This document shows, in pieces, positions 2,964 through 33,149 of a DNA stretch of 42,878 nucleotides. The notes under the pieces were generated by a model. That model made no database searches. It saw only the letters and a list, made by a program, of their open reading frames with translations, and was not told the DNA's origin. Origin of the DNA: a virus; IMG/VR virus record IMGVR_UViG_3300045988_083839, positions 1 to 42,878 of that record, one strand, 5' to 3'. The stretch's first letter is position 1, and each line of letters opens with the position of its first letter. The position numbers and the translations under genes were made by a program.

Positions 2964-2977
2964 TTGCGATACCGCAA
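2964..2977. promoter_or_regulatory. Palindrome TTGCGATACCGCAA (copy 1, one mismatch), 23 nt upstream of the int ATG
   Basis: Member of the TTGCGA-NN-TCGCAA family. It is preceded by the hairpin 2923-2941 plus ATTTTTTATACT. Confidence 0.5.
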
Positions 2978-2999
2978 CACCACCAGAAAGGATGATATT

Positions 3000-4070
3000 A
3001 TGGCAAAAGCAAAGAAACTGAAATCGGGGAGCTGGAGGTGCCTGGTATATGATTACACAGATGATGCCGGGAAGCGACACTATAAATCATTTACGTGCGA
3101 CGATCCCTCTCCAAAAGGAAAAAGAAAAGCAGAAATGATGGCTGCTGAATATGCAACAACCGAAAAGAATAACAAACTGTTAAATATGAAAAACCAAAAT
3201 ATTACACTAGGTGAAGCATGGGATATGTACATTGAAAACCGCTCTTCTGTCTTATCGCCCGGAACAGTTCGTGAATATAAGCGTTCTCGAAAAACTGACC
3301 TAAAAACATTGATGCCTATGCGGCTTTCGGATATTACCTTAGATGATATCCAAATCGCTATTAATGCTGAGGCCCTGAATCATTCTGCAAAAACAGTGAG
3401 AAACATCCATGGCTTATTATCTGCCGTTATGGGAACTTATCGCCCTAGTCTTTCTTTGAAAACAGACTTGCCTAAGCCCACTCGCCCAGAACTATACATT
3501 CCCAGTGATGCAGAAATCAAAATTCTTCTGAAATATCTAAGTGGAAATGAAATGGAAATTCCTGTCTTGTTGGCTGCATTCGGACCTATGAGAAGAGGTG
3601 AAATATGCGCACTCTGTTATGAAGATATTCATGGAAATACAATCCATGTTCATGCAGCTCTGGCACAAGATGAAAATAAACAATGGGTGATAAAACCGCC
3701 AAAAACTTTTTCATCCGACAGGTATATAGAATTTCCTGAGTTTATTATTAAAAAAATTGGAAAAGGAACTGGGCAAATTGTGCAAATGTCTCCTAATGCT
3801 CTTTCTTCCAGATTTTATCATATTCTAAAAAATGCAGGGCTGCCCCATTTTCGTTTCCATGACCTCCGCCATTATTCAGCTTCTATCCAGCATGCTCTGG
3901 GCATTCCTGATGTCTATATCATGCAGCGCGGTGGATGGTCGTCCGATGCCACTCTAAAAAATGTATACCGCCATGCTATGGATGATCAAGCACAAGAGAT
4001 GAATAATATAGCAAATTCGCATTTTGAAAACCTATGCAACACGAAATGCAACACGAACATTGAAAAGTAA
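3000..4070 (+). CDS. int: Tyrosine recombinase / phage integrase
   Basis: The C-terminal catalytic pattern is GLPHFRFHDLRHYSAS...GGWSSDATLKNVYRH. AAAGGA RBS before ATG 3000. The 2964 ORF extension was rejected. Confidence 0.93.
   Translation: MAKAKKLKSGSWRCLVYDYTDDAGKRHYKSFTCDDPSPKGKRKAEMMAAEYATTEKNNKLLNMKNQNITLGEAWDMYIENRSSVLSPGTVREYKRSRKTDLKTLMPMRLSDITLDDIQIAINAEALNHSAKTVRNIHGLLSAVMGTYRPSLSLKTDLPKPTRPELYIPSDAEIKILLKYLSGNEMEIPVLLAAFGPMRRGEICALCYEDIHGNTIHVHAALAQDENKQWVIKPPKTFSSDRYIEFPEFIIKKIGKGTGQIVQMSPNALSSRFYHILKNAGLPHFRFHDLRHYSASIQHALGIPDVYIMQRGGWSSDATLKNVYRHAMDDQAQEMNNIANSHFENLCNTKCNTNIEK
4032..4057 (+). repeat. 26-bp direct repeat copy 1 (2x ATGCAACACGAA), candidate integrase arm-type sites
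   Basis: ctatgcaacacgaaatgcaacacgaa is identical to 4248-4273. It overlaps the last codons of int. Confidence 0.6.
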
Positions 4071-29428: not shown

Positions 29429-30155
29429 CAGCGTTTAGTGCTTCCAGGAATCCGTCATCCTCTATCTCAGCCTCCTGGCCGCCCAGCTTAAGGGCCTGCA
29501 AATCAAGCCGCATTAGTTCGATTTCTAGGCGAGCATCATCCACGCCATACCGGTGCAACGAATCAATGGCAGCCTGCTTTCGGGCCTGTACACGGGTCAG
29601 CGCGTCCTCTATGTTCTGGATCTGCCCCAGCGTTGCACGGTTCTCACTTAAATCCGTTATTTCGCCTTTTTCAATTCCGATTTTTTCAATTCCGATTTTT
29701 TTTGAAACTGTTGTAAAATCAGCCTGCCGCAGATTCTCGATACGTTTTAACATCCGGCGTTCCCGGACAGTCAAGAGCTGTATCTCCTGGAGAAGAAGCT
29801 GCTCTTTGTCCAGCGAAACTGCCTCGGCCAGCCGGCGCTCATCGGAATCCAGGCAATCAAAAAAGAGAGTTTCAAACTCTCCTGTCGTTACTGCATTTTT
29901 ATTCTGTTCAGGCGCCCCATAACCGGCTGCATTCTGATTTCCTGGCTGACCGCCTTTTTTACGTTTGGAACGTTCCGTATTCTTTCGGAGCGTTCCATTC
30001 AATTTCTGGTCCCATTTATCCTTAGATTTCCATCCTCGAATCGTTCCCGATGATAAATTTAGTTGACTTGCAATCTCAACTAAATCAATGCTTCCACCGG
30101 CTTTCTTAAATATTTCAAAGGCTTTGTCCCGATTAGGATCCCTGGCTCTTCCCAC
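29382..30155 (-). CDS. terS: Terminase small subunit
   Basis: N-terminal HTH (IASQLNLSSGTIRGWKSKDKW) and the GGQPGNQNA motif. GTG start with a GAGGTGG RBS. Confidence 0.8.
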   Translation of the reverse strand: MGRARDPNRDKAFEIFKKAGGSIDLVEIASQLNLSSGTIRGWKSKDKWDQKLNGTLRKNTERSKRKKGGQPGNQNAAGYGAPEQNKNAVTTGEFETLFFDCLDSDERRLAEAVSLDKEQLLLQEIQLLTVRERRMLKRIENLRQADFTTVSKKIGIEKIGIEKGEITDLSENRATLGQIQNIEDALTRVQARKQAAIDSLHRYGVDDARLEIELMRLDLQALKLGGQEAEIEDDGFLEALNADAGELWSDADDSRQD

Positions 30156-30197: not shown

Positions 30198-30219
30198 AGA
30201 GCCGCACGGTGGCGGCTCT
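30198..30219 (-). terminator. Intrinsic terminator closing the two-gene AT-rich cassette
   Basis: Minus strand reads AGAGCCGC-CACCGT-GCGGCTCT followed by TTTCT. Confidence 0.75.
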
Positions 30220-30246: not shown

Positions 30247-30876
30247 TCAAAAATCCTCTTCATCCAACATCTCCAGAAGTCTTGTAACAGCATAAATATT
30301 AAACAGTTGAAAAATTGTAGAAATAAAACTAAATGTCCTCCATAATATTATTCCAATAAAAACAAAATAAATTACAATTAAAGCTATTGCACTTATGTTA
30401 TTTACTATCAAATTTGAAAATAGTAAGAAATTATCTGGGATGCAAAACATAATTACTTTTATAATTAGTGTGAATGTTATTGCTGTAATATACAATAGCA
30501 TTAAATATACAAAATGCTCATTAATGTCTTGTAATCTACTTTTTTCTCCTCCTTCATAAGTCTTCACATCATTTAGAAGTTGAAGTAACATATGTTTATT
30601 CATAAAAGCCTGCAACAATGCATATCCCGTAAAAATCACGCCCAAAAGCGCTAGCATTACATTTAATGCATCATCTATAACTTGTCGAAAAACTATCACT
30701 GTGTCTGTATGTATTCCAACTATACTTCCCAAAACGCAGCAAACTATTATCAATATCCATCGTGATTTTTTATACTTTTTTTCGACTCTAAGACCCTTAA
30801 TTGCTTTTAAAAGTAATTGCTCAGAGGGTTCAGACTTAAGCAACTGCTCAATATTATCAATATTTAAATTATTCAT
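30247..30876 (-). CDS. Multi-pass membrane protein (209 aa, 4-5 predicted TM helices), unknown; cassette gene B
   Basis: Hydrophobic segments are WILIIVCCVLGSIVGI, VMLALLGVIFTGYALLQAF, FVYLMLLYITAITFTLIIKVIMFCI and AIALIVIYFVFIGIILW. Acidic tail is EMLDEEDF. GGAGGGGGAAG RBS. Very AT-rich. Confidence 0.75.
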   Translation of the reverse strand: MNNLNIDNIEQLLKSEPSEQLLLKAIKGLRVEKKYKKSRWILIIVCCVLGSIVGIHTDTVIVFRQVIDDALNVMLALLGVIFTGYALLQAFMNKHMLLQLLNDVKTYEGGEKSRLQDINEHFVYLMLLYITAITFTLIIKVIMFCIPDNFLLFSNLIVNNISAIALIVIYFVFIGIILWRTFSFISTIFQLFNIYAVTRLLEMLDEEDF

Positions 30877-30898
30877 AATTCTTCCCCCTCCAAATGTT

Positions 30899-31882
30899 TT
30901 ATTTCCCTTTGCGAATAAACTGAACTATCTTGTCTTGATTCTTTTGATATATCCTATTGTTTTCCTCACTAGTATATTTTATACTATCTATTTCTTTTCC
31001 CTGTTTAATCATACTGTATAATTCCGTTTTTCTTTCCCCTTCTGGAATGGTCATTTTTCTCCTATCTGATATTTCATGATACTTTATAGTAGACTCCCCT
31101 TTTCTTCCTGGATATTTGGCCACCACAACAGGTTCCACCGTTCCTTCTGCAGCCTCGACCACTTCTATAACGCCATTTATATTCTTTGGAGATCGATATG
31201 TTACTGACCCTCGGTCACTACCAATTCTTCTACGCAATTCCTTAGTAACGCCATCCATTATACCAGATAATTCTATATCCCCATCACCATTTAATGGGTA
31301 AAACTTCAATGTCAGCGTTGAAATTTTTTCAACTTGCTTCAATACTTCTATCATACCACCCTTGGGAGGTATTCCTACAATGCTAACAAGAGGAACTGGA
31401 AGCAACTCTCTATCTTGCTCCATCCTTATATGATTTTCCCTTACAATAAATGTATCCAAAACATATTTAGCTGTCGAGCGAAAACTATCTAAAGATGGGC
31501 TTCCTTTCTGATTCTCAACCAATATCATCCTGTGATTTTTTAAATAAATAACAAATGTGGAAAATGGAGCAGTTGGATAAATATCATTTCTTTCAACAAG
31601 ATTTCCATATTCATCAAACATAGATTTGACTTCAAGGACTGTACTTTTAACAATCAATCCCGTCAAAATATATTCCATATCTGAATCCTGCTGAACTTCA
31701 ACATCTAAAAATAAATATGTGTTATCTCCTTGGCTTCTTGTAATACCACTTTTAAAAGCCGGCATTACAATAGTGTCAAAATAATCCAGCAATGGACTTT
31801 CCGTTTCATTTTCCATGAAAACCACATTAAAATTGGCCACGGATACCTTTTTCTCATTAATAGCAGTTCTATTTTTATCCAT
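30899..31882 (-). CDS. Soluble 327-aa protein of unknown function; cassette gene A
   Basis: ATG 31882 is preceded by GGAGAG. The longer ORF start at 31924 overlaps the -10 box. I could not recognise any P-loop, cyclase, TIR or nuclease motif. Confidence 0.75.
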   Translation of the reverse strand: MDKNRTAINEKKVSVANFNVVFMENETESPLLDYFDTIVMPAFKSGITRSQGDNTYLFLDVEVQQDSDMEYILTGLIVKSTVLEVKSMFDEYGNLVERNDIYPTAPFSTFVIYLKNHRMILVENQKGSPSLDSFRSTAKYVLDTFIVRENHIRMEQDRELLPVPLVSIVGIPPKGGMIEVLKQVEKISTLTLKFYPLNGDGDIELSGIMDGVTKELRRRIGSDRGSVTYRSPKNINGVIEVVEAAEGTVEPVVVAKYPGRKGESTIKYHEISDRRKMTIPEGERKTELYSMIKQGKEIDSIKYTSEENNRIYQKNQDKIVQFIRKGK

Positions 31883-31912
31883 ATCGCACTCTCCAATCCG
31901 ACATTTTTCTAC

Positions 31913-31921
31913 ATTATACCA
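31913..31921 (-). promoter_or_regulatory. Extended -10 promoter (TGGTATAAT) of the two-gene cassette
   Basis: Minus strand reads CATGTGGTATAATGTAG, about 30 nt upstream of ATG 31882. Confidence 0.6.
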
Positions 31922-32083
31922 CATGCCGTACTGGAAAATCTTTCCAAATATGTTCTTATGTATTTGTATATTATGTTGCGTAGCTTACAAACATTCTTTT
32001 CTACATTTGTATTTTAGAACATTTGTTCGATTTTTGTAAAATACCAATAAGTTATGACTATCTATTTTTCCATAACAAAAAGA

Positions 32084-32101
32084 CACCCTCTCACGAGGAT
32101 G
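32084..32101 (-). terminator. Intrinsic terminator of the structured RNA
   Basis: Minus strand reads CATCCTC-GTGA-GAGGGTG (GNRA loop) followed by TCTTTTTGTT. Confidence 0.7.
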
Positions 32102-32245
32102 CCTCTCTGTCGTGTCTGGAATGTCTGGGTGGAGATCCCGAAACCAGAACTATGATGGTCTTTAGGTTTCCCATGGCACCGTCAAACCAAAGCCCCCACC
32201 AGGCTGTAACACCTGGCAGGAGTATATTGAAAAGGAGGATCACAA

Positions 32246-32314
32246 TCGACACATCCGGAATCGAACCGGAGACCAGGGTGAAAGCCCGCCACCTACCACT
32301 GGTGGTATATGCCG
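32246..32314 (-). ncRNA. Embedded non-canonical tRNA-like cloverleaf (69 nt, loop CUUUCAC)
   Basis: Acceptor CGGCATA/TGTGTCG has two G-U pairs. D-arm is CACC-AGTGGTA-GGTG. The anticodon-like stem CGGG/CCTG has only 4 bp, with a 7-nt loop CTTTCAC. T-arm is TCCGG-TTCGATT-CCGGA. The variable region is 2-3 nt and no CCA is encoded. Confidence 0.45.
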
Positions 32315-32478
32315 TTGCTGCCCTGGAGGCTAACCAGGGCGATAATCGAAAGACGTATTATGTACTAGCCCAGGTGTGGGCCAATTGACCGCAGGCTGTG
32401 ACACCGGGCGGTCGAAAATCACATTGAGGGGATAATCCAGAAGCCGCTGGCTGGATGCCTTTGGCTTCATGATATAGA

Positions 32479-32970
32479 TTAACATATTTCTTCGGGACAT
32501 TGGGGGACATTTTCCAATTTTTTAAAATATCTTTGAATTCGTTTTTTAACGTTCTCATCCGTATATTTTATTTTTCGATTTGGATATTCATTGTTCATGT
32601 ATTCCGCTGTTTTTACAAATGTCAATCCATCAATAAAATAAAATCTAAACATCGTTCTCAGTTCTGATTTCTGGATACTGTCTATGTATTCCTCTGCTTG
32701 GCAAGTCAGCTCCAAAAGTTCCGCTTCTTTTGCCTCCAACAACGCCCTGTACCGCATTCTCGCGTTTTTCTTGCGGGTATACTCCCGATCCGGAATCCCA
32801 GTAATCTTAATCGGCCCGATTGTCAAATCCTTCCTGCTCCCTGTTACGGTATCTGCTACAATCGGCGGTTTCTCCAGGAACTTGTCCAGCTTCATGATTC
32901 TCTGCCGTAAATCCTTTATCTCTTCTTTCATCTCGCAATACTGTATCAGCACCTCCTTATCCAACGGCAT
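32479..32970 (-). CDS. Late-gene transcriptional activator candidate (sigma-70 region-4-like; DUF1492/RinA/ArpU-type analogue)
   Basis: The N-terminal coiled coil is followed by SELRTMFRFYFIDGLTFVKTAEYM, a sigma r4-type HTH. It sits at the early/late boundary. TGATG coupling to the upstream small ORF. Confidence 0.55.
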   Translation of the reverse strand: MPLDKEVLIQYCEMKEEIKDLRQRIMKLDKFLEKPPIVADTVTGSRKDLTIGPIKITGIPDREYTRKKNARMRYRALLEAKEAELLELTCQAEEYIDSIQKSELRTMFRFYFIDGLTFVKTAEYMNNEYPNRKIKYTDENVKKRIQRYFKKLENVPQCPEEIC

Positions 32971-33149
32971 CACCTCCTAACTCTTCCAGTTTCATCTCTA
33001 ATTGCTATCCGTCCAACAATTTCCACATTGCACTCTCTGGCAGCAGCCTTCATCAGCCGAATTACCAGTTCCACATTGTCCGGCTGCTTGTCTGCCCTGT
33101 GGATCGCTTTCCCAGCTGTCGGGTCAGGGTAGCCTTCTGCGTTCTTCAT
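32970..33149 (-). CDS. Small conserved protein (59 aa), unannotated in the ORF track
   Basis: My translation is MKNAEGYPDPTAGKAIHRADKQPDNVELVIRLMKAAARECNVEIVGRIAIRDETGRVRR*. I recall the MxNxEGYxDPTA family from Clostridia phages and ICEs. Confidence 0.6.
   Translation of the reverse strand: MKNAEGYPDPTAGKAIHRADKQPDNVELVIRLMKAAARECNVEIVGRIAIRDETGRVRR

What the first reader, a model, noticed from the sequence alone, without database searches (positions are those of the whole stretch)
32076..32478. ~400-nt GC-rich, ORF-free, highly structured RNA with its own terminator between the late regulator and the AT-rich cassette
**Seen in sequence**
- The stretch lies between the stop of the late-activator gene (32479) and a GNRA-capped terminator (32084-32101, followed by a U-run on the minus strand).
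- It has no RBS-supported ORF, and it is GC-rich in a phage whose accessory DNA is AT-rich.
- On the minus strand it is packed with short perfect helices:
  - ATCCAG/CTGGAT
  - GACCGC/GCGGTC
  - GCCCA-CACC-TGGGC
  - GCCCTGG-TTAGCCT-CCAGGGC
  - CCAGG-TGTTACAG-CCTGG
  - GGTTT/AAACC
- The motif GGTGTYACAGCCTG is duplicated (rc of 32393-32406 and of 32201-32214).
- A GGTTCGATTCC T-loop is present.
- A single-stranded-looking GATCCTCCTTTT (32230-32241) resembles the 16S 3' anti-Shine-Dalgarno end.

**Inference**
- Large ornate prophage RNAs are known (ROOL, GOLLD), but I cannot tell by eye whether this belongs to one of them.
- If it does not, it is a new large phage ncRNA class.
Basis: partly seen in the sequence, partly recalled or inferred. 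Interest (0 to 1): 0.8.

Follow-up and report, generated by a model that had tools for sequence, protein, structure and literature searches.

The report
Phage late-operon leader carrying a tRNA
The roughly 400-base "structured RNA" is the non-coding leader of this gut phage's late operon, built from separable modules: a hairpin conserved across many related phages and present here twice, an odd tRNA-Glu-like gene in a slot where relatives carry ordinary tRNAs, and a terminator. It is not one new giant RNA.

Summary
The sequence features are real, but the region is not one ornate RNA.

- **What it is.** It is the predicted leader of the late operon, about 394 nt on the minus strand. It runs from a start near 32470 to an intrinsic terminator at 32076-32105.
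- **Promoter.** It overlaps the 3' end of the regulator gene: direct repeats ATGTCCC at 32491-32510, then an extended -10 at 32476-32484.
- **Leader contents.** A 5' hairpin (P1), two copies of a hairpin called P2 here, two small hairpins, and a 69-nt near-canonical tRNA-Glu(UUC). Close relatives carry a normal tRNA-Lys or tRNA-Met in exactly the same flanks.
- **P2 hairpin.** It has an 11-bp stem and a UGUYACAS loop. It covaries strongly (97% paired, 6 of 11 pairs compensatory). It is absent from Rfam 15. It sits 60-100 nt downstream of the regulator's stop codon in most related Lachnospiraceae phages.
- **Modularity.** Homology to other phages starts at the predicted start site and ends after hp2 or after the terminator.
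- **Mechanism (inferred).** P2 is most likely a cis-acting element of the late transcript. My best guess is that it helps RNA polymerase read through the terminators that insulate inserted cargo. RNA stability or processing is the main rival.
- **Known families.** No match to ROOL, GOLLD, tmRNA or introns.

The parts
32479..32973 (-). Late regulator gene (164 aa); context, not part of the RNA
   Evidence: Matches phrog_36 'transcriptional regulator' at 4.5e-13. No Pfam family, including none of ConAn1's PF17362. The AF2 model (pLDDT 87) shows a coiled coil, a beta-hairpin and three C-terminal helices, with no PDB match.
32491..32510 (-). Two direct repeats, ATGTCCCCCA and ATGTCCCGAA, 10 nt apart, inside the 3' end of the regulator gene. 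Candidate binding site of the regulator.
   Evidence: The only such copy in the window. Relatives have different repeat units at the same place while the encoded C-termini differ. The arrangement matches that shown for Ltr activators (PMC3753634).
32476..32484 (-). Extended -10 element TGTTAATCT of the predicted late promoter. It overlaps the regulator's TAA stop codon.
   Evidence: A TGnTAnnnT element sits at the same distance from the repeats in nearly all relatives, while neighbouring bases vary. It is present in 53 of 55 independently sampled loci.
32468..32470 (-). Predicted transcription start; start of the conserved leader (GAAGCC...)
   Evidence: It lies 6-8 nt after the -10. BLAST homology to eight contigs with unrelated upstream DNA begins exactly at 32468.
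32440..32468 (-). P1, a 5'-terminal hairpin (GAAGCC...GGCTTC)
   Evidence: Predicted by RNAalifold. A 5'-proximal hairpin of varying sequence is present in 26 diverse leaders, with mean z of -1.68. Two single-sequence breaks occur in the close subfamily.
32387..32414 (-). hp1, the degenerate copy of the P2 hairpin (loop UGUCACAG)
   Evidence: Scores 41 bits with model R1. The stem substitutions seen in relatives are all wobble-compatible.
32364..32385 (-). hpA, a small hairpin (GGCCCA-CACC-TGGGCT)
   Evidence: Predicted by RNAalifold. Three one-sided changes keep pairing.
32320..32340 (-). hpB, a small hairpin (GCCCTGG-TTAGCCT-CCAGGGC)
   Evidence: Invariant in 15 unique relatives, so structure is neither supported nor contradicted.
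32246..32314 (-). Near-canonical tRNA-Glu(UUC) gene, 69 nt. Anticodon at 32280-32282; no encoded CCA.
   Evidence: ARAGORN calls it at 90% threshold but not at the default. The best Rfam tRNA-clan score is 18 bits. The slot holds tRNA-Lys(ttt) or tRNA-Met(cat) in relatives. All three stem substitutions keep pairing and the anticodon is invariant.
32230..32241 (-). C-rich, anti-Shine-Dalgarno-like tract GATCCTCCTTTT upstream of hp2
   Evidence: Invariant in the subfamily. A CCTCC-type tract precedes P2 in most leaders. Its function is unknown.
32193..32222 (-). hp2, the canonical copy of the family-wide P2 hairpin (11-bp stem, loop UGUUACAG)
   Evidence: Scores 50 bits with model R1. Across the family, 97.3% of cells are paired, 6 of 11 pairs have compensatory changes, and G-U pairs are frequent.
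32106..32192 (-). 3' leader module, including a TCTGG...CCAGA hairpin (32144-32148 with 32115-32119)
   Evidence: Shared with L001, L002 and several metagenome contigs. Its last part is shared with L012, L013, L027, L030, L031, L047 and L051. It is absent in L003 and L078.
32076..32105 (-). Intrinsic terminator: 11-bp stem, GTGA (GNRA) loop, T-run
   Evidence: Predicted at -16.7 kcal/mol. The same terminator, with a compensatory A-U to C-G change and a GAGA loop, occurs in seven other loci. Homology to four contigs ends at 32074-32077.
30198..30219 (-). Second intrinsic terminator, after the AT-rich cassette and just before terS; context
   Evidence: Found. With no second copy of the promoter repeats, late transcripts would have to pass it.

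Best explanation
The interval is the 5' leader of the phage's single late operon, on the minus strand.

**Shown or strongly indicated by comparison**
- A late promoter overlaps the end of the regulator gene. It consists of two direct repeats at 32491-32510 and an extended -10 at 32476-32484, with a start near 32470.
- The transcript begins with a 5' hairpin (P1).
- It carries a hairpin, P2, that is conserved as an RNA structure across a large family of Lachnospiraceae phages. P2 is present here twice, as hp1 and hp2.
- Between the two copies lies an inserted block of about 216 nt. It brings hp1 itself, two small hairpins and a cargo slot for a tRNA gene. In this phage the slot holds a slightly non-canonical tRNA-Glu(UUC).
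- A conserved GNRA-capped intrinsic terminator at 32076-32105 ends the leader.
- Next comes a separately promoted AT-rich cassette with its own terminator, then terS and about 26 kb of late genes.

**Inferred**
- The regulator binds the repeats and switches the promoter on, as shown for Ltr activators of Gram-positive phages.
- Transcripts that stop at the terminator give a roughly 394-nt RNA. RNase P and RNase Z would cut it to release the tRNA.
- P2 acts in cis on the late transcript.

**Most likely role of P2 (about 35-40%)**
P2 makes late transcription read through the terminators that insulate cargo inserted between the promoter and terS, as put, EAR or conAn2 RNAs do. The next most likely role (about 30%) is protection or processing of the late mRNA.
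For: **Promoter**
- There is only one repeat pair in the window.
- Relatives carry repeat units of at least 10 different sequences, followed by TGnTAnnnT at a fixed spacing.
- Sequence conservation of the leader begins exactly at 32468 in eight contigs whose upstream DNA is unrelated.

**P2 hairpin**
- It lies 59-100 nt after the regulator's stop codon in about 50 of 74 loci.
- 97.3% of cells are paired, 6 of 11 pairs have compensatory changes, and there are many G-U pairs that would be A-C on the other strand.
- The covariance model hits the window only at hp1 and hp2.
- In a sample found through P2 alone, 53 of 55 loci have the -10 and 49 of 55 have direct repeats upstream.

**tRNA slot**
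- About 30 of the 77 regulator loci have a same-strand tRNA just downstream.
- The flanks are identical around tRNA-Glu-like, tRNA-Lys or tRNA-Met.
- ARAGORN calls tRNA-Glu(ttc) at 90% threshold.
- Stem substitutions keep pairing.

**Modularity:**

**Terminators in the path of late transcription**
- They lie at 32076-32105 and 30198-30219, with further intergenic ones at about 24363, 20493 and 6804.
- 30 of 41 P2 leaders have a terminator before the first large ORF.
Against: - There are no transcript data. The start site, termination and processing are all predictions.
- P2 also occurs in leaders with no terminator before terS (L008, L053, L037).
- The association with terminators is weak: 30 of 41 loci with P2 against 10 of 21 without.
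- The regulator has no detectable similarity to Q, to ConAn1 or to any solved structure.
- Within the close subfamily the extra hairpins show only one-sided changes and no compensatory ones.
- The tRNA fails the default ARAGORN threshold and Rfam's tRNA threshold. It has a 4-bp anticodon stem, or 5 bp with a G.G mismatch. It has a 2-3-nt variable loop and no nucleotide at position 26. It may therefore not be charged or decoded.
Confidence: 0.7

Rival explanations
1. The identity of the region is as above, but P2 and the 5' hairpin P1 act on RNA fate rather than on RNA polymerase. They would protect the late mRNA from 5'-end-dependent decay or direct its processing. In this phage, the copy downstream of the tRNA (hp2) would protect the new 5' end left by RNase Z.
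For: - A 5'-terminal hairpin occurs in nearly all of 26 diverse leaders.
- P2 occurs in the terS 5' UTR even where no terminator follows.
- The window lineage has a P2 copy on each side of the tRNA.
- From my own knowledge, 5' stem-loops stabilise mRNAs in Firmicutes.
Against: - In most loci with a tRNA, the tRNA lies downstream of the single P2 (L004, L009, L023, L033). After tRNA excision the hairpin would therefore be lost from the late mRNA.
- A strictly conserved 8-nt loop sequence is not needed for a simple protective hairpin.
Confidence: 0.3
2. The whole roughly 400 nt is one large structured ncRNA of a new class, comparable to ROOL or GOLLD. The tRNA-like fold would be one of its domains.
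For: - The fold is better than shuffles (z = -3.7).
- The leader core is 84-95% identical in phages that differ elsewhere.
- Variation is concentrated in predicted linkers.
Against: - No Rfam match.
- No long-range helices are predicted in the centroid or in the alignment fold.
- The tRNA domain is replaced by unrelated tRNAs.
- The 216-nt block and the 3' module are each absent in close relatives.
- Only about 30 nt are shared across the wider family.
Confidence: 0.06
3. The inverted repeat P2 works as DNA. It would be a protein-binding palindrome, a packaging (pac/cos) signal next to terS, or a recombination linker that explains the mosaic borders.
For: - It lies upstream of terS.
- Module borders fall next to it.
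- The loop contains the near-palindrome GTGTCAC.
Against: - Stem positions covary, with compensatory changes and frequent G-U or U-G pairs in one orientation only. This is the signature of a folded single strand, not of a duplex binding site.
- Its distance is fixed to the promoter, not to terS. The distance to terS ranges from about 45 nt to more than 2 kb.
Confidence: 0.07
4. The tRNA-like element is a decaying pseudogene or a non-decoding mimic, for example a decoy or nuclease-resistant substitute aimed at host anticodon nucleases. It would not be a working tRNA-Glu.
For: - It falls below the default ARAGORN threshold and the Rfam threshold.
- It has a shortened anticodon stem and variable loop.
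- The alternative cargos read Lys(UUU) and initiator-like Met(CAU). From my own knowledge these classes are known anticodon-nuclease targets. Phage tRNAs that evade such defences are documented (PMC10264068, PMC11555353).
Against: - It is 98% identical across six variants, against roughly 85-95% for the whole leader.
- Every stem change keeps pairing, and the anticodon and U33 are invariant.
- This argues against neutral decay. It does not separate decoding from mimicry.
Confidence: 0.35
5. The T-loop is a fragment of a host tRNA gene at the phage attachment site, or the interval encodes a small protein.
For: Phages often integrate into tRNA genes. Several ORFs of 33-121 aa overlap the interval.
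Against: - The cloverleaf is complete, not just a 3' half.
- The integrase is at 2964-4070, about 28 kb away.
- The ORFs lack ribosome-binding sites, as read from the sequence. They are broken by indels and by the tRNA swap in relatives.
- A possible leaderless ORF from the ATG at 32468-32470 is not kept in frame, and the ATG is absent in many leaders.
Confidence: 0.02

Closest known systems
Late promoters controlled by Ltr activators (RinA, LtrC, ArpU, DUF1492) of Gram-positive temperate phages (PMC3753634, PMC3152322)
   Same: - A small activator gene lies directly upstream of terS.
- Short direct repeats at or just after the end of the activator gene serve as its binding site.
- Repeat sequence and activator are exchanged together, while the DNA downstream is a separate module.
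   Different: - The regulator here matches only phrog_36 and none of the named Pfam or NCBIfam families.
- Searching that paper for 'leader' and 'tRNA' found no occurrences.
Lambda and Stx-phage late leader: PR' promoter, short RNA ending at tR' (6S RNA, StxS), Q antitermination (PMC7547250)
   Same: - The promoter sits right after the late regulator gene.
- A terminator lies a few hundred nt downstream, giving a short by-product RNA.
- One long late operon lies beyond it.
- From my own knowledge, Stx phages also carry tRNA genes and morons (stx) in this same interval.
   Different: - No similarity of the regulator to Q proteins was found.
- The repeats lie at about -42 to -24, like an activator site.
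- It is not shown that the promoter is constitutive or that termination is overcome.
RNA-based processive antiterminators: HK022 put (PMC9378689), Bacillus EAR, and conAn2 with ConAn1 (PMC8191782)
   Same: - The RNA is promoter-proximal and cis-acting, with essential stem-loops and a GC-rich tract.
- It lies upstream of several terminators.
- conAn is likewise a small protein gene followed by a 260-600-bp structured, ORF-free intergenic region in a Gram-positive mobile element.
   Different: - No sequence or model match to any of them.
- ConAn1's domain PF17362 is absent.
- The setting is a phage late operon, not a conjugation operon.
- Antitermination activity is untested.
Phage-encoded tRNAs, for codon compensation or for evasion of tRNA-targeting defences (PMC10264068, PMC11555353)
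   Same: A cargo tRNA sits in a phage. The anticodons seen in this slot across relatives read mostly A/U-rich codons (Glu UUC, Lys UUU, Ile UAU, Met CAU). Anticodon-arm variants are present.
   Different: The tRNA is embedded inside a conserved leader between two copies of a regulatory hairpin. The window's copy is below standard detection thresholds.
ROOL and GOLLD large prophage RNAs
   Same: Prophage location, non-coding, a tRNA nearby.
   Different: No covariance-model match even at E<=10. The region is smaller, modular, and has no long-range architecture.

Membership tests
ROOL / GOLLD / raiA / tmRNA / group I and II introns (Rfam 15) | Match to the family covariance model | tested here: not met
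   No hits at gathering score in the whole window. None of these families appears at E<=10 in 31800-32700. ARAGORN finds no tmRNA.
tRNA | 7-bp acceptor stem, and a T-arm with a TTCGANT loop | tested here: met
   C1-G68 to A7-U62 are all paired. The T-arm is TCCGG-TTCGATT-CCGGA.
tRNA | D-arm with GG, and a 7-nt anticodon loop with U33 and a purine at position 37 | tested here: met
   The D-loop is AGTGGTA. The anticodon loop is CUUUCAC, anticodon UUC.
tRNA | 5-bp anticodon stem, nucleotide 26, and a variable loop of at least 4 nt | tested here: not met
   The stem is 4 bp, or 5 with a G.G mismatch. There is no spacer after the D-stem. The variable loop is 2-3 nt, and the total is 69 nt.
tRNA | Detection at standard thresholds | tested here: not met
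   ARAGORN at default finds none; at 90% it calls tRNA-Glu. The best Rfam tRNA-clan score is 18.2 bits, for tRNA-Sec (gathering score 47). The tRNA model itself has a gathering score of 29.
tRNA | Processing, CCA addition and aminoacylation | not testable with these tools
   Needs Northern blots or tRNA-seq.
Intrinsic terminator | GC-rich hairpin followed directly by a U-run | tested here: met
   The site at 32076-32105 has an 11-bp stem at -16.7 kcal/mol, followed by TTTTT. It is conserved with a compensatory change in seven loci.
Ltr-type late promoter (PMC3753634) | Direct repeats at or just after the end of the activator gene, upstream of the terS promoter | tested here: met
   The repeats lie at 32491-32510 with the -10 at 32476-32484. 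The same layout, with other repeat units, occurs in relatives.
Ltr-type late promoter (PMC3753634) | Activator belongs to the RinA, LtrC, ArpU or DUF1492 families and binds the repeats | tested here: inconclusive
   Only phrog_36 matches. There is no Pfam or NCBIfam match. Binding is not testable here.
Lambda-type Q antitermination leader | Q-family regulator | tested here: not met
   Foldseek of the AF2 model against the PDB gave no match with E<=0.001.
Lambda-type Q antitermination leader | Promoter next to the regulator gene, a terminator within a few hundred nt, and late genes beyond | tested here: met
   The start is near 32470, terminators lie at 32076-32105 and 30198-30219, and terS starts at 30155.
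conAn bipartite antitermination (PMC8191782) | ConAn1 protein with domain PF17362 encoded just upstream of the RNA region | tested here: not met
   A Pfam scan of the regulator at E<=10 does not list PF17362.
HK022 put / EAR | A specific two-stem-loop RNA that alone modifies RNA polymerase | tested here: inconclusive
   A P1 plus P2 two-hairpin layout is present. No family of any kind matched the P1/P2 part of the leader at E<=10. Activity is not testable here.

The most novel reading that the evidence does not exclude
P2 may be a new kind of cis-acting antitermination RNA for Gram-positive phage late operons. It consists of the 11-bp stem, the UGUYACAS loop and the upstream C-rich tract, working together with the 5' hairpin P1.

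It would load onto RNA polymerase that starts at the activator-dependent late promoter. That polymerase could then ignore the terminators that insulate tRNAs and morons inserted between the promoter and terS. This would explain why the interval is a cargo hot spot, and why one hairpin is shared by phages whose regulators have at least 10 different DNA specificities.
Probability: 0.25. Interest if true: 0.75.

Novelty: new variant of a known kind. Interest (0 to 1): 0.45.

Why it matters
- **Late gene control.** Late-gene control in temperate phages of gut Clostridia is almost unstudied. This analysis gives a concrete, testable layout: activator repeats, an extended -10, a structured leader, and cargo bounded by terminators. 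It matches the S. aureus Ltr model at the promoter and resembles the lambda PR'-tR' layout downstream.
- **A candidate RNA motif.** The conserved hairpin is absent from Rfam 15 and is found in over a hundred viral contigs and in Lachnospiraceae genomes. It offers a handle on how a 26-kb late operon is read through internal terminators.
- **tRNA cargo.** Glu-like, Lys or initiator-like Met genes occupy identical flanks. This is a clean natural example of tRNA cargo exchange and bears on the debate over codon supply versus counter-defence.
- **Annotation.** Leaders of this kind should not be filed as giant ncRNAs.

Tried and rejected
- **Rfam.** Scanned at gathering score (whole window and 20 loci) and at E<=10 (31800-32700). 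Only true tRNAs in relatives were found.
- **Phage GenBank blastn.** A search with the interval gave no match.
- **Leaderless small ORF.** An ORF from the conserved ATG at the start site stays in frame in some leaders. A poly-C length change breaks it in L043, an early stop breaks it in L011, and the ATG is missing in L008, L053 and L054.
- **Anti-SD tract pairing with the terS ribosome-binding site.** Complementarity is short and not kept across leader types (reading).
- **Target for the P2 loop.** No complement of the loop occurs elsewhere in the window above chance.
- **Regulator identity.** Pfam, NCBIfam, AF2 plus Foldseek against the PDB, and tblastn against phages gave only 'hypothetical protein' and a prefoldin-like coiled coil. 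pLS20 could not be fetched for a direct ConAn1 comparison.
- **attP.** Rejected because the integrase lies 28 kb away.
- **Aligning P1 across the family.** MAFFT with RNAalifold failed because the sequences differ too much. P1 was shown only by per-sequence folding.
- **Terminator association.** The trend with P2 is weak: 30 of 41 against 10 of 21.
- **AT-rich cassette.** Its proteins match nothing in Pfam, PHROGs or PADLOC.
Full report
**Setting.** The window is a temperate siphophage of the gut Lachnospiraceae type.
- The integrase is at 2964-4070, and replication genes lie at about 36-41 kb.
- A small regulator sits at 32479-32973 on the minus strand and matches only phrog_36.
- Next comes the interval in question, then an AT-rich two-gene cassette (30247-31924, GC 0.32).
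- After that come terS (start 30155), terL and the structural and lysis genes down to about 4.3 kb, all on the minus strand.
- Homologues of the regulator are 'hypothetical proteins' of Clostridium fessum and Enterocloster.

**Checking the observation.**
- The interval has GC 0.531 against 0.448 for the window, the 95th percentile of windows of that size.
- It folds better than shuffles on the minus strand (z -3.7; plus strand -2.15).
- It holds no Rfam family at gathering score or at E<=10, and no tRNA or tmRNA by default ARAGORN.
- The terminator is real: an 11-bp stem, a GTGA loop and a T-run.
- No ORF survives comparison with relatives. There are 1-, 2- and 4-nt indels between the window and L001, and a whole block is replaced in L002.

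**Relatives show modules, not one fold.** I fetched 77 viral contigs that encode a relative of the regulator. Further loci came from DNA patterns. Four results matter.
1. *The tRNA slot.* In L002 and its relatives a canonical tRNA-Lys(ttt) replaces the T-loop-containing block 32246-32314, base for base. In L081, L085, L087, L090, L091 and L096 an initiator-like tRNA-Met(cat) replaces it. The flanks are identical in all cases.
2. *The inserted block.* L014, L016 and L017 have the same 5' hairpin and the same hp2 but lack 32224-32439.
3. *The 3' module.* L003 and L078 diverge right after hp2 and run into terS.
4. *The breakpoints.* BLAST homology to eight contigs with unrelated upstream DNA starts exactly at 32468. 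It ends either at about 32187 (just after hp2) or at 32074-32077 (just after the terminator).

A single ornate RNA would not be assembled and disassembled in this way.

**The promoter.**
- The last codons of the regulator gene contain ATGTCCCCCA and ATGTCCCGAA (32491-32510). This is the only such pair in the window.
- Eleven nt later comes TGTTAATCT, an extended -10 that overlaps the stop codon.
- Relatives have other repeat units at the same place: ATGTTCG, ATGTCGG, ATATCG x3, ATTCG x3, GTCGGAA, TTTGTTC, CGTGTC, ATGACA and more. Each is followed by TGnTAnnnT at the same spacing, while the encoded C-termini differ. The constraint is therefore on the DNA.
- This is the layout shown experimentally for the Ltr activators RinA, LtrC and ArpU. 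[quoted passage not shown]
- The predicted start is near 32470.

**The conserved hairpin (P2).**
- The duplicated GGTGTYACAGCCTG is the loop and inner stem of a hairpin. It lies 59-100 nt after the regulator's stop codon in about 50 of 74 loci.
- On 41 distinct sequences, 97.3% of cells in the 11-bp stem are paired. Six pairs show compensatory changes. G-U and U-G pairs are frequent. Sliding the partner by one column drops pairing to 44-49%.
- This is an RNA hairpin on the sense strand of the late transcript, not a duplex-DNA palindrome.
- A covariance model hits the window only at hp2 (50 bits) and hp1 (41 bits); the next best site scores 11.9 bits.
- In a sample found through the P2 core alone (109 viral contigs, 63 unique contexts), 55 have the extended stem. 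Of these, 53 have the -10, 49 have direct repeats upstream, and 18 have a same-strand tRNA within 450 nt downstream.
- Genome hits with this context are in Blautia, Hungatella, Enterocloster, Lachnoclostridium, Fusicatenibacter and other Lachnospiraceae. The remaining hits look like chance.
- The upstream genes in these loci are diverse small proteins with a coiled-coil N-terminal half and a sigma-region-4-like C-terminal helix-turn-helix, judged by eye from their sequences. P2 is thus shared across regulators of many DNA specificities.

**Other leader elements.**
- A 5'-terminal hairpin (P1) of varying sequence starts within a few nt of the predicted start in 26 diverse leaders (mean z -1.68).
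- In the window the better pairing is GAAGCC/GGCTTC.
- A CCTCC-type tract usually lies between P1 and P2.
- hp1 and hpA show only wobble-compatible one-sided changes, and hpB never varies.
- The 3' module ends in a terminator whose sequence is conserved in seven other loci, with an A-U to C-G compensatory change and a GNRA loop.

**The tRNA-like element.**
- At 90% threshold ARAGORN calls 32246-32314 tRNA-Glu(ttc), 69 nt.
- It has a 7-bp acceptor stem, U8, an AGTGGTA D-loop, a CUUUCAC anticodon loop and a TTCGATT T-loop.
- It departs from the norm in three ways. The anticodon stem is 4 bp (or 5 with a G.G mismatch). There is no nucleotide 26. The variable loop is 2-3 nt.
- Six variants differ at four columns. 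Three are in stems and keep pairing (G.U to G-C, U.G to U-A, G.U to A-U). One is loop position 32. The anticodon is invariant.
- About 30 of the 77 regulator loci carry a tRNA at this place: Met, Ile(tat), Lys, Val, Asn, Arg, Leu.
- The block is a tRNA cargo slot. Whether this copy decodes, or serves as a processing signal or decoy, cannot be told here.

**Mechanism.**
- *Shown by comparison.* The promoter, leader, cargo and terminator architecture, and the RNA-level conservation of P2.
- *Inferred.* Only one copy of the promoter repeats exists in the window. Late transcripts must therefore pass the terminators at 32076-32105 and 30198-30219 to reach terS. They must then pass further intergenic terminator-like hairpins at about 24363, 20493 and 6804.
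- *Family pattern.* 30 of 41 distinct P2 leaders have a terminator before the first large ORF, against 10 of 21 leaders without P2. The trend is weak.
- *Preferred reading, about 35-40%.* P2 is a cis-acting element that makes late transcription terminator-resistant. Precedents are put RNA (PMC9378689), EAR and conAn2 (PMC8191782), and the Q system, where the terminated PR' leader is a short RNA (PMC7547250).
- *Main rival, about 30%.* RNA stability or processing.
- *What does not fit.* The regulator shows no similarity to Q or ConAn1. P2 also occurs where no terminator follows.

**Verdict.** The region is a composite late-operon leader with a tRNA cargo slot. The kind is known, but this variant contains an undescribed, well-supported hairpin motif and an unusual tRNA.

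Noticed in passing
window 30247-32040 (-); L001 about 3900-4060; L084 and L093 (alignment): The AT-rich cassette has its own promoter (tGgTATAAT at about 31913-31921) and its own terminator (30198-30219). Its probable start codon is at 31880-31882, not the listed 31924. Different cargo genes sit behind the same conserved 5' UTR (AAAATGTCGGATTGGAGAGT) in relatives, for example a ParA-like ATPase in L001. This looks like a moron or defence hot spot. The window's two proteins (341 aa, and a 209-aa membrane protein with a weak SLATT hit) match nothing in Pfam, PHROGs or PADLOC.
   Followed up: partly
L081, L085, L087, L090, L091, L096 compared with L082, L083, L084, L089: The tRNA-Met(cat) and tRNA-Lys(ttt) in the slot share one body, which resembles a bacterial initiator tRNA. 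They differ only at five positions: four in the anticodon stem-loop, and position 72. This is an apparent anticodon switch. The Met form has C instead of the universal U at position 33.
   Followed up: partly
L006 3733-3804; L148; L227: ARAGORN reports tRNAs with abnormal anticodon loops in the same leader position in other phages: 'tRNA-???' with anticodon cgag or cg.
   Followed up: no
L003, L004 (about 820-880), L009 (about 3260-3320), L090: Just upstream of terS, after a terminator, lies a second pair of direct repeats (TTGTGGAT, 11 nt apart) followed by TATAGACT. It could be a second regulator site or a terminase or pac site. The window's terS region lacks it.
   Followed up: no
window 32479-32973 (-): The regulator's AF2 model (pLDDT 87) is a long coiled coil with a beta-hairpin, prefoldin-like, plus three C-terminal helices. 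It has no significant PDB match and no Pfam family, although more than 1000 homologues exist.
   Followed up: partly
window about 24363, 20493 and 6804 (-): Clean terminator-like hairpins with T-runs sit in intergenic gaps inside the late operon.
   Followed up: no
L043 about 3500-3560: A run of 10 C in the leader's C-rich tract, against 4-5 in relatives. This may be a slippage-prone tract.
   Followed up: no
L044 3570-3600: Leaders that lack P2 by the model may carry a diverged hairpin at the same place (GGCCCGGCTGTTACGCTGGGCC).
   Followed up: no
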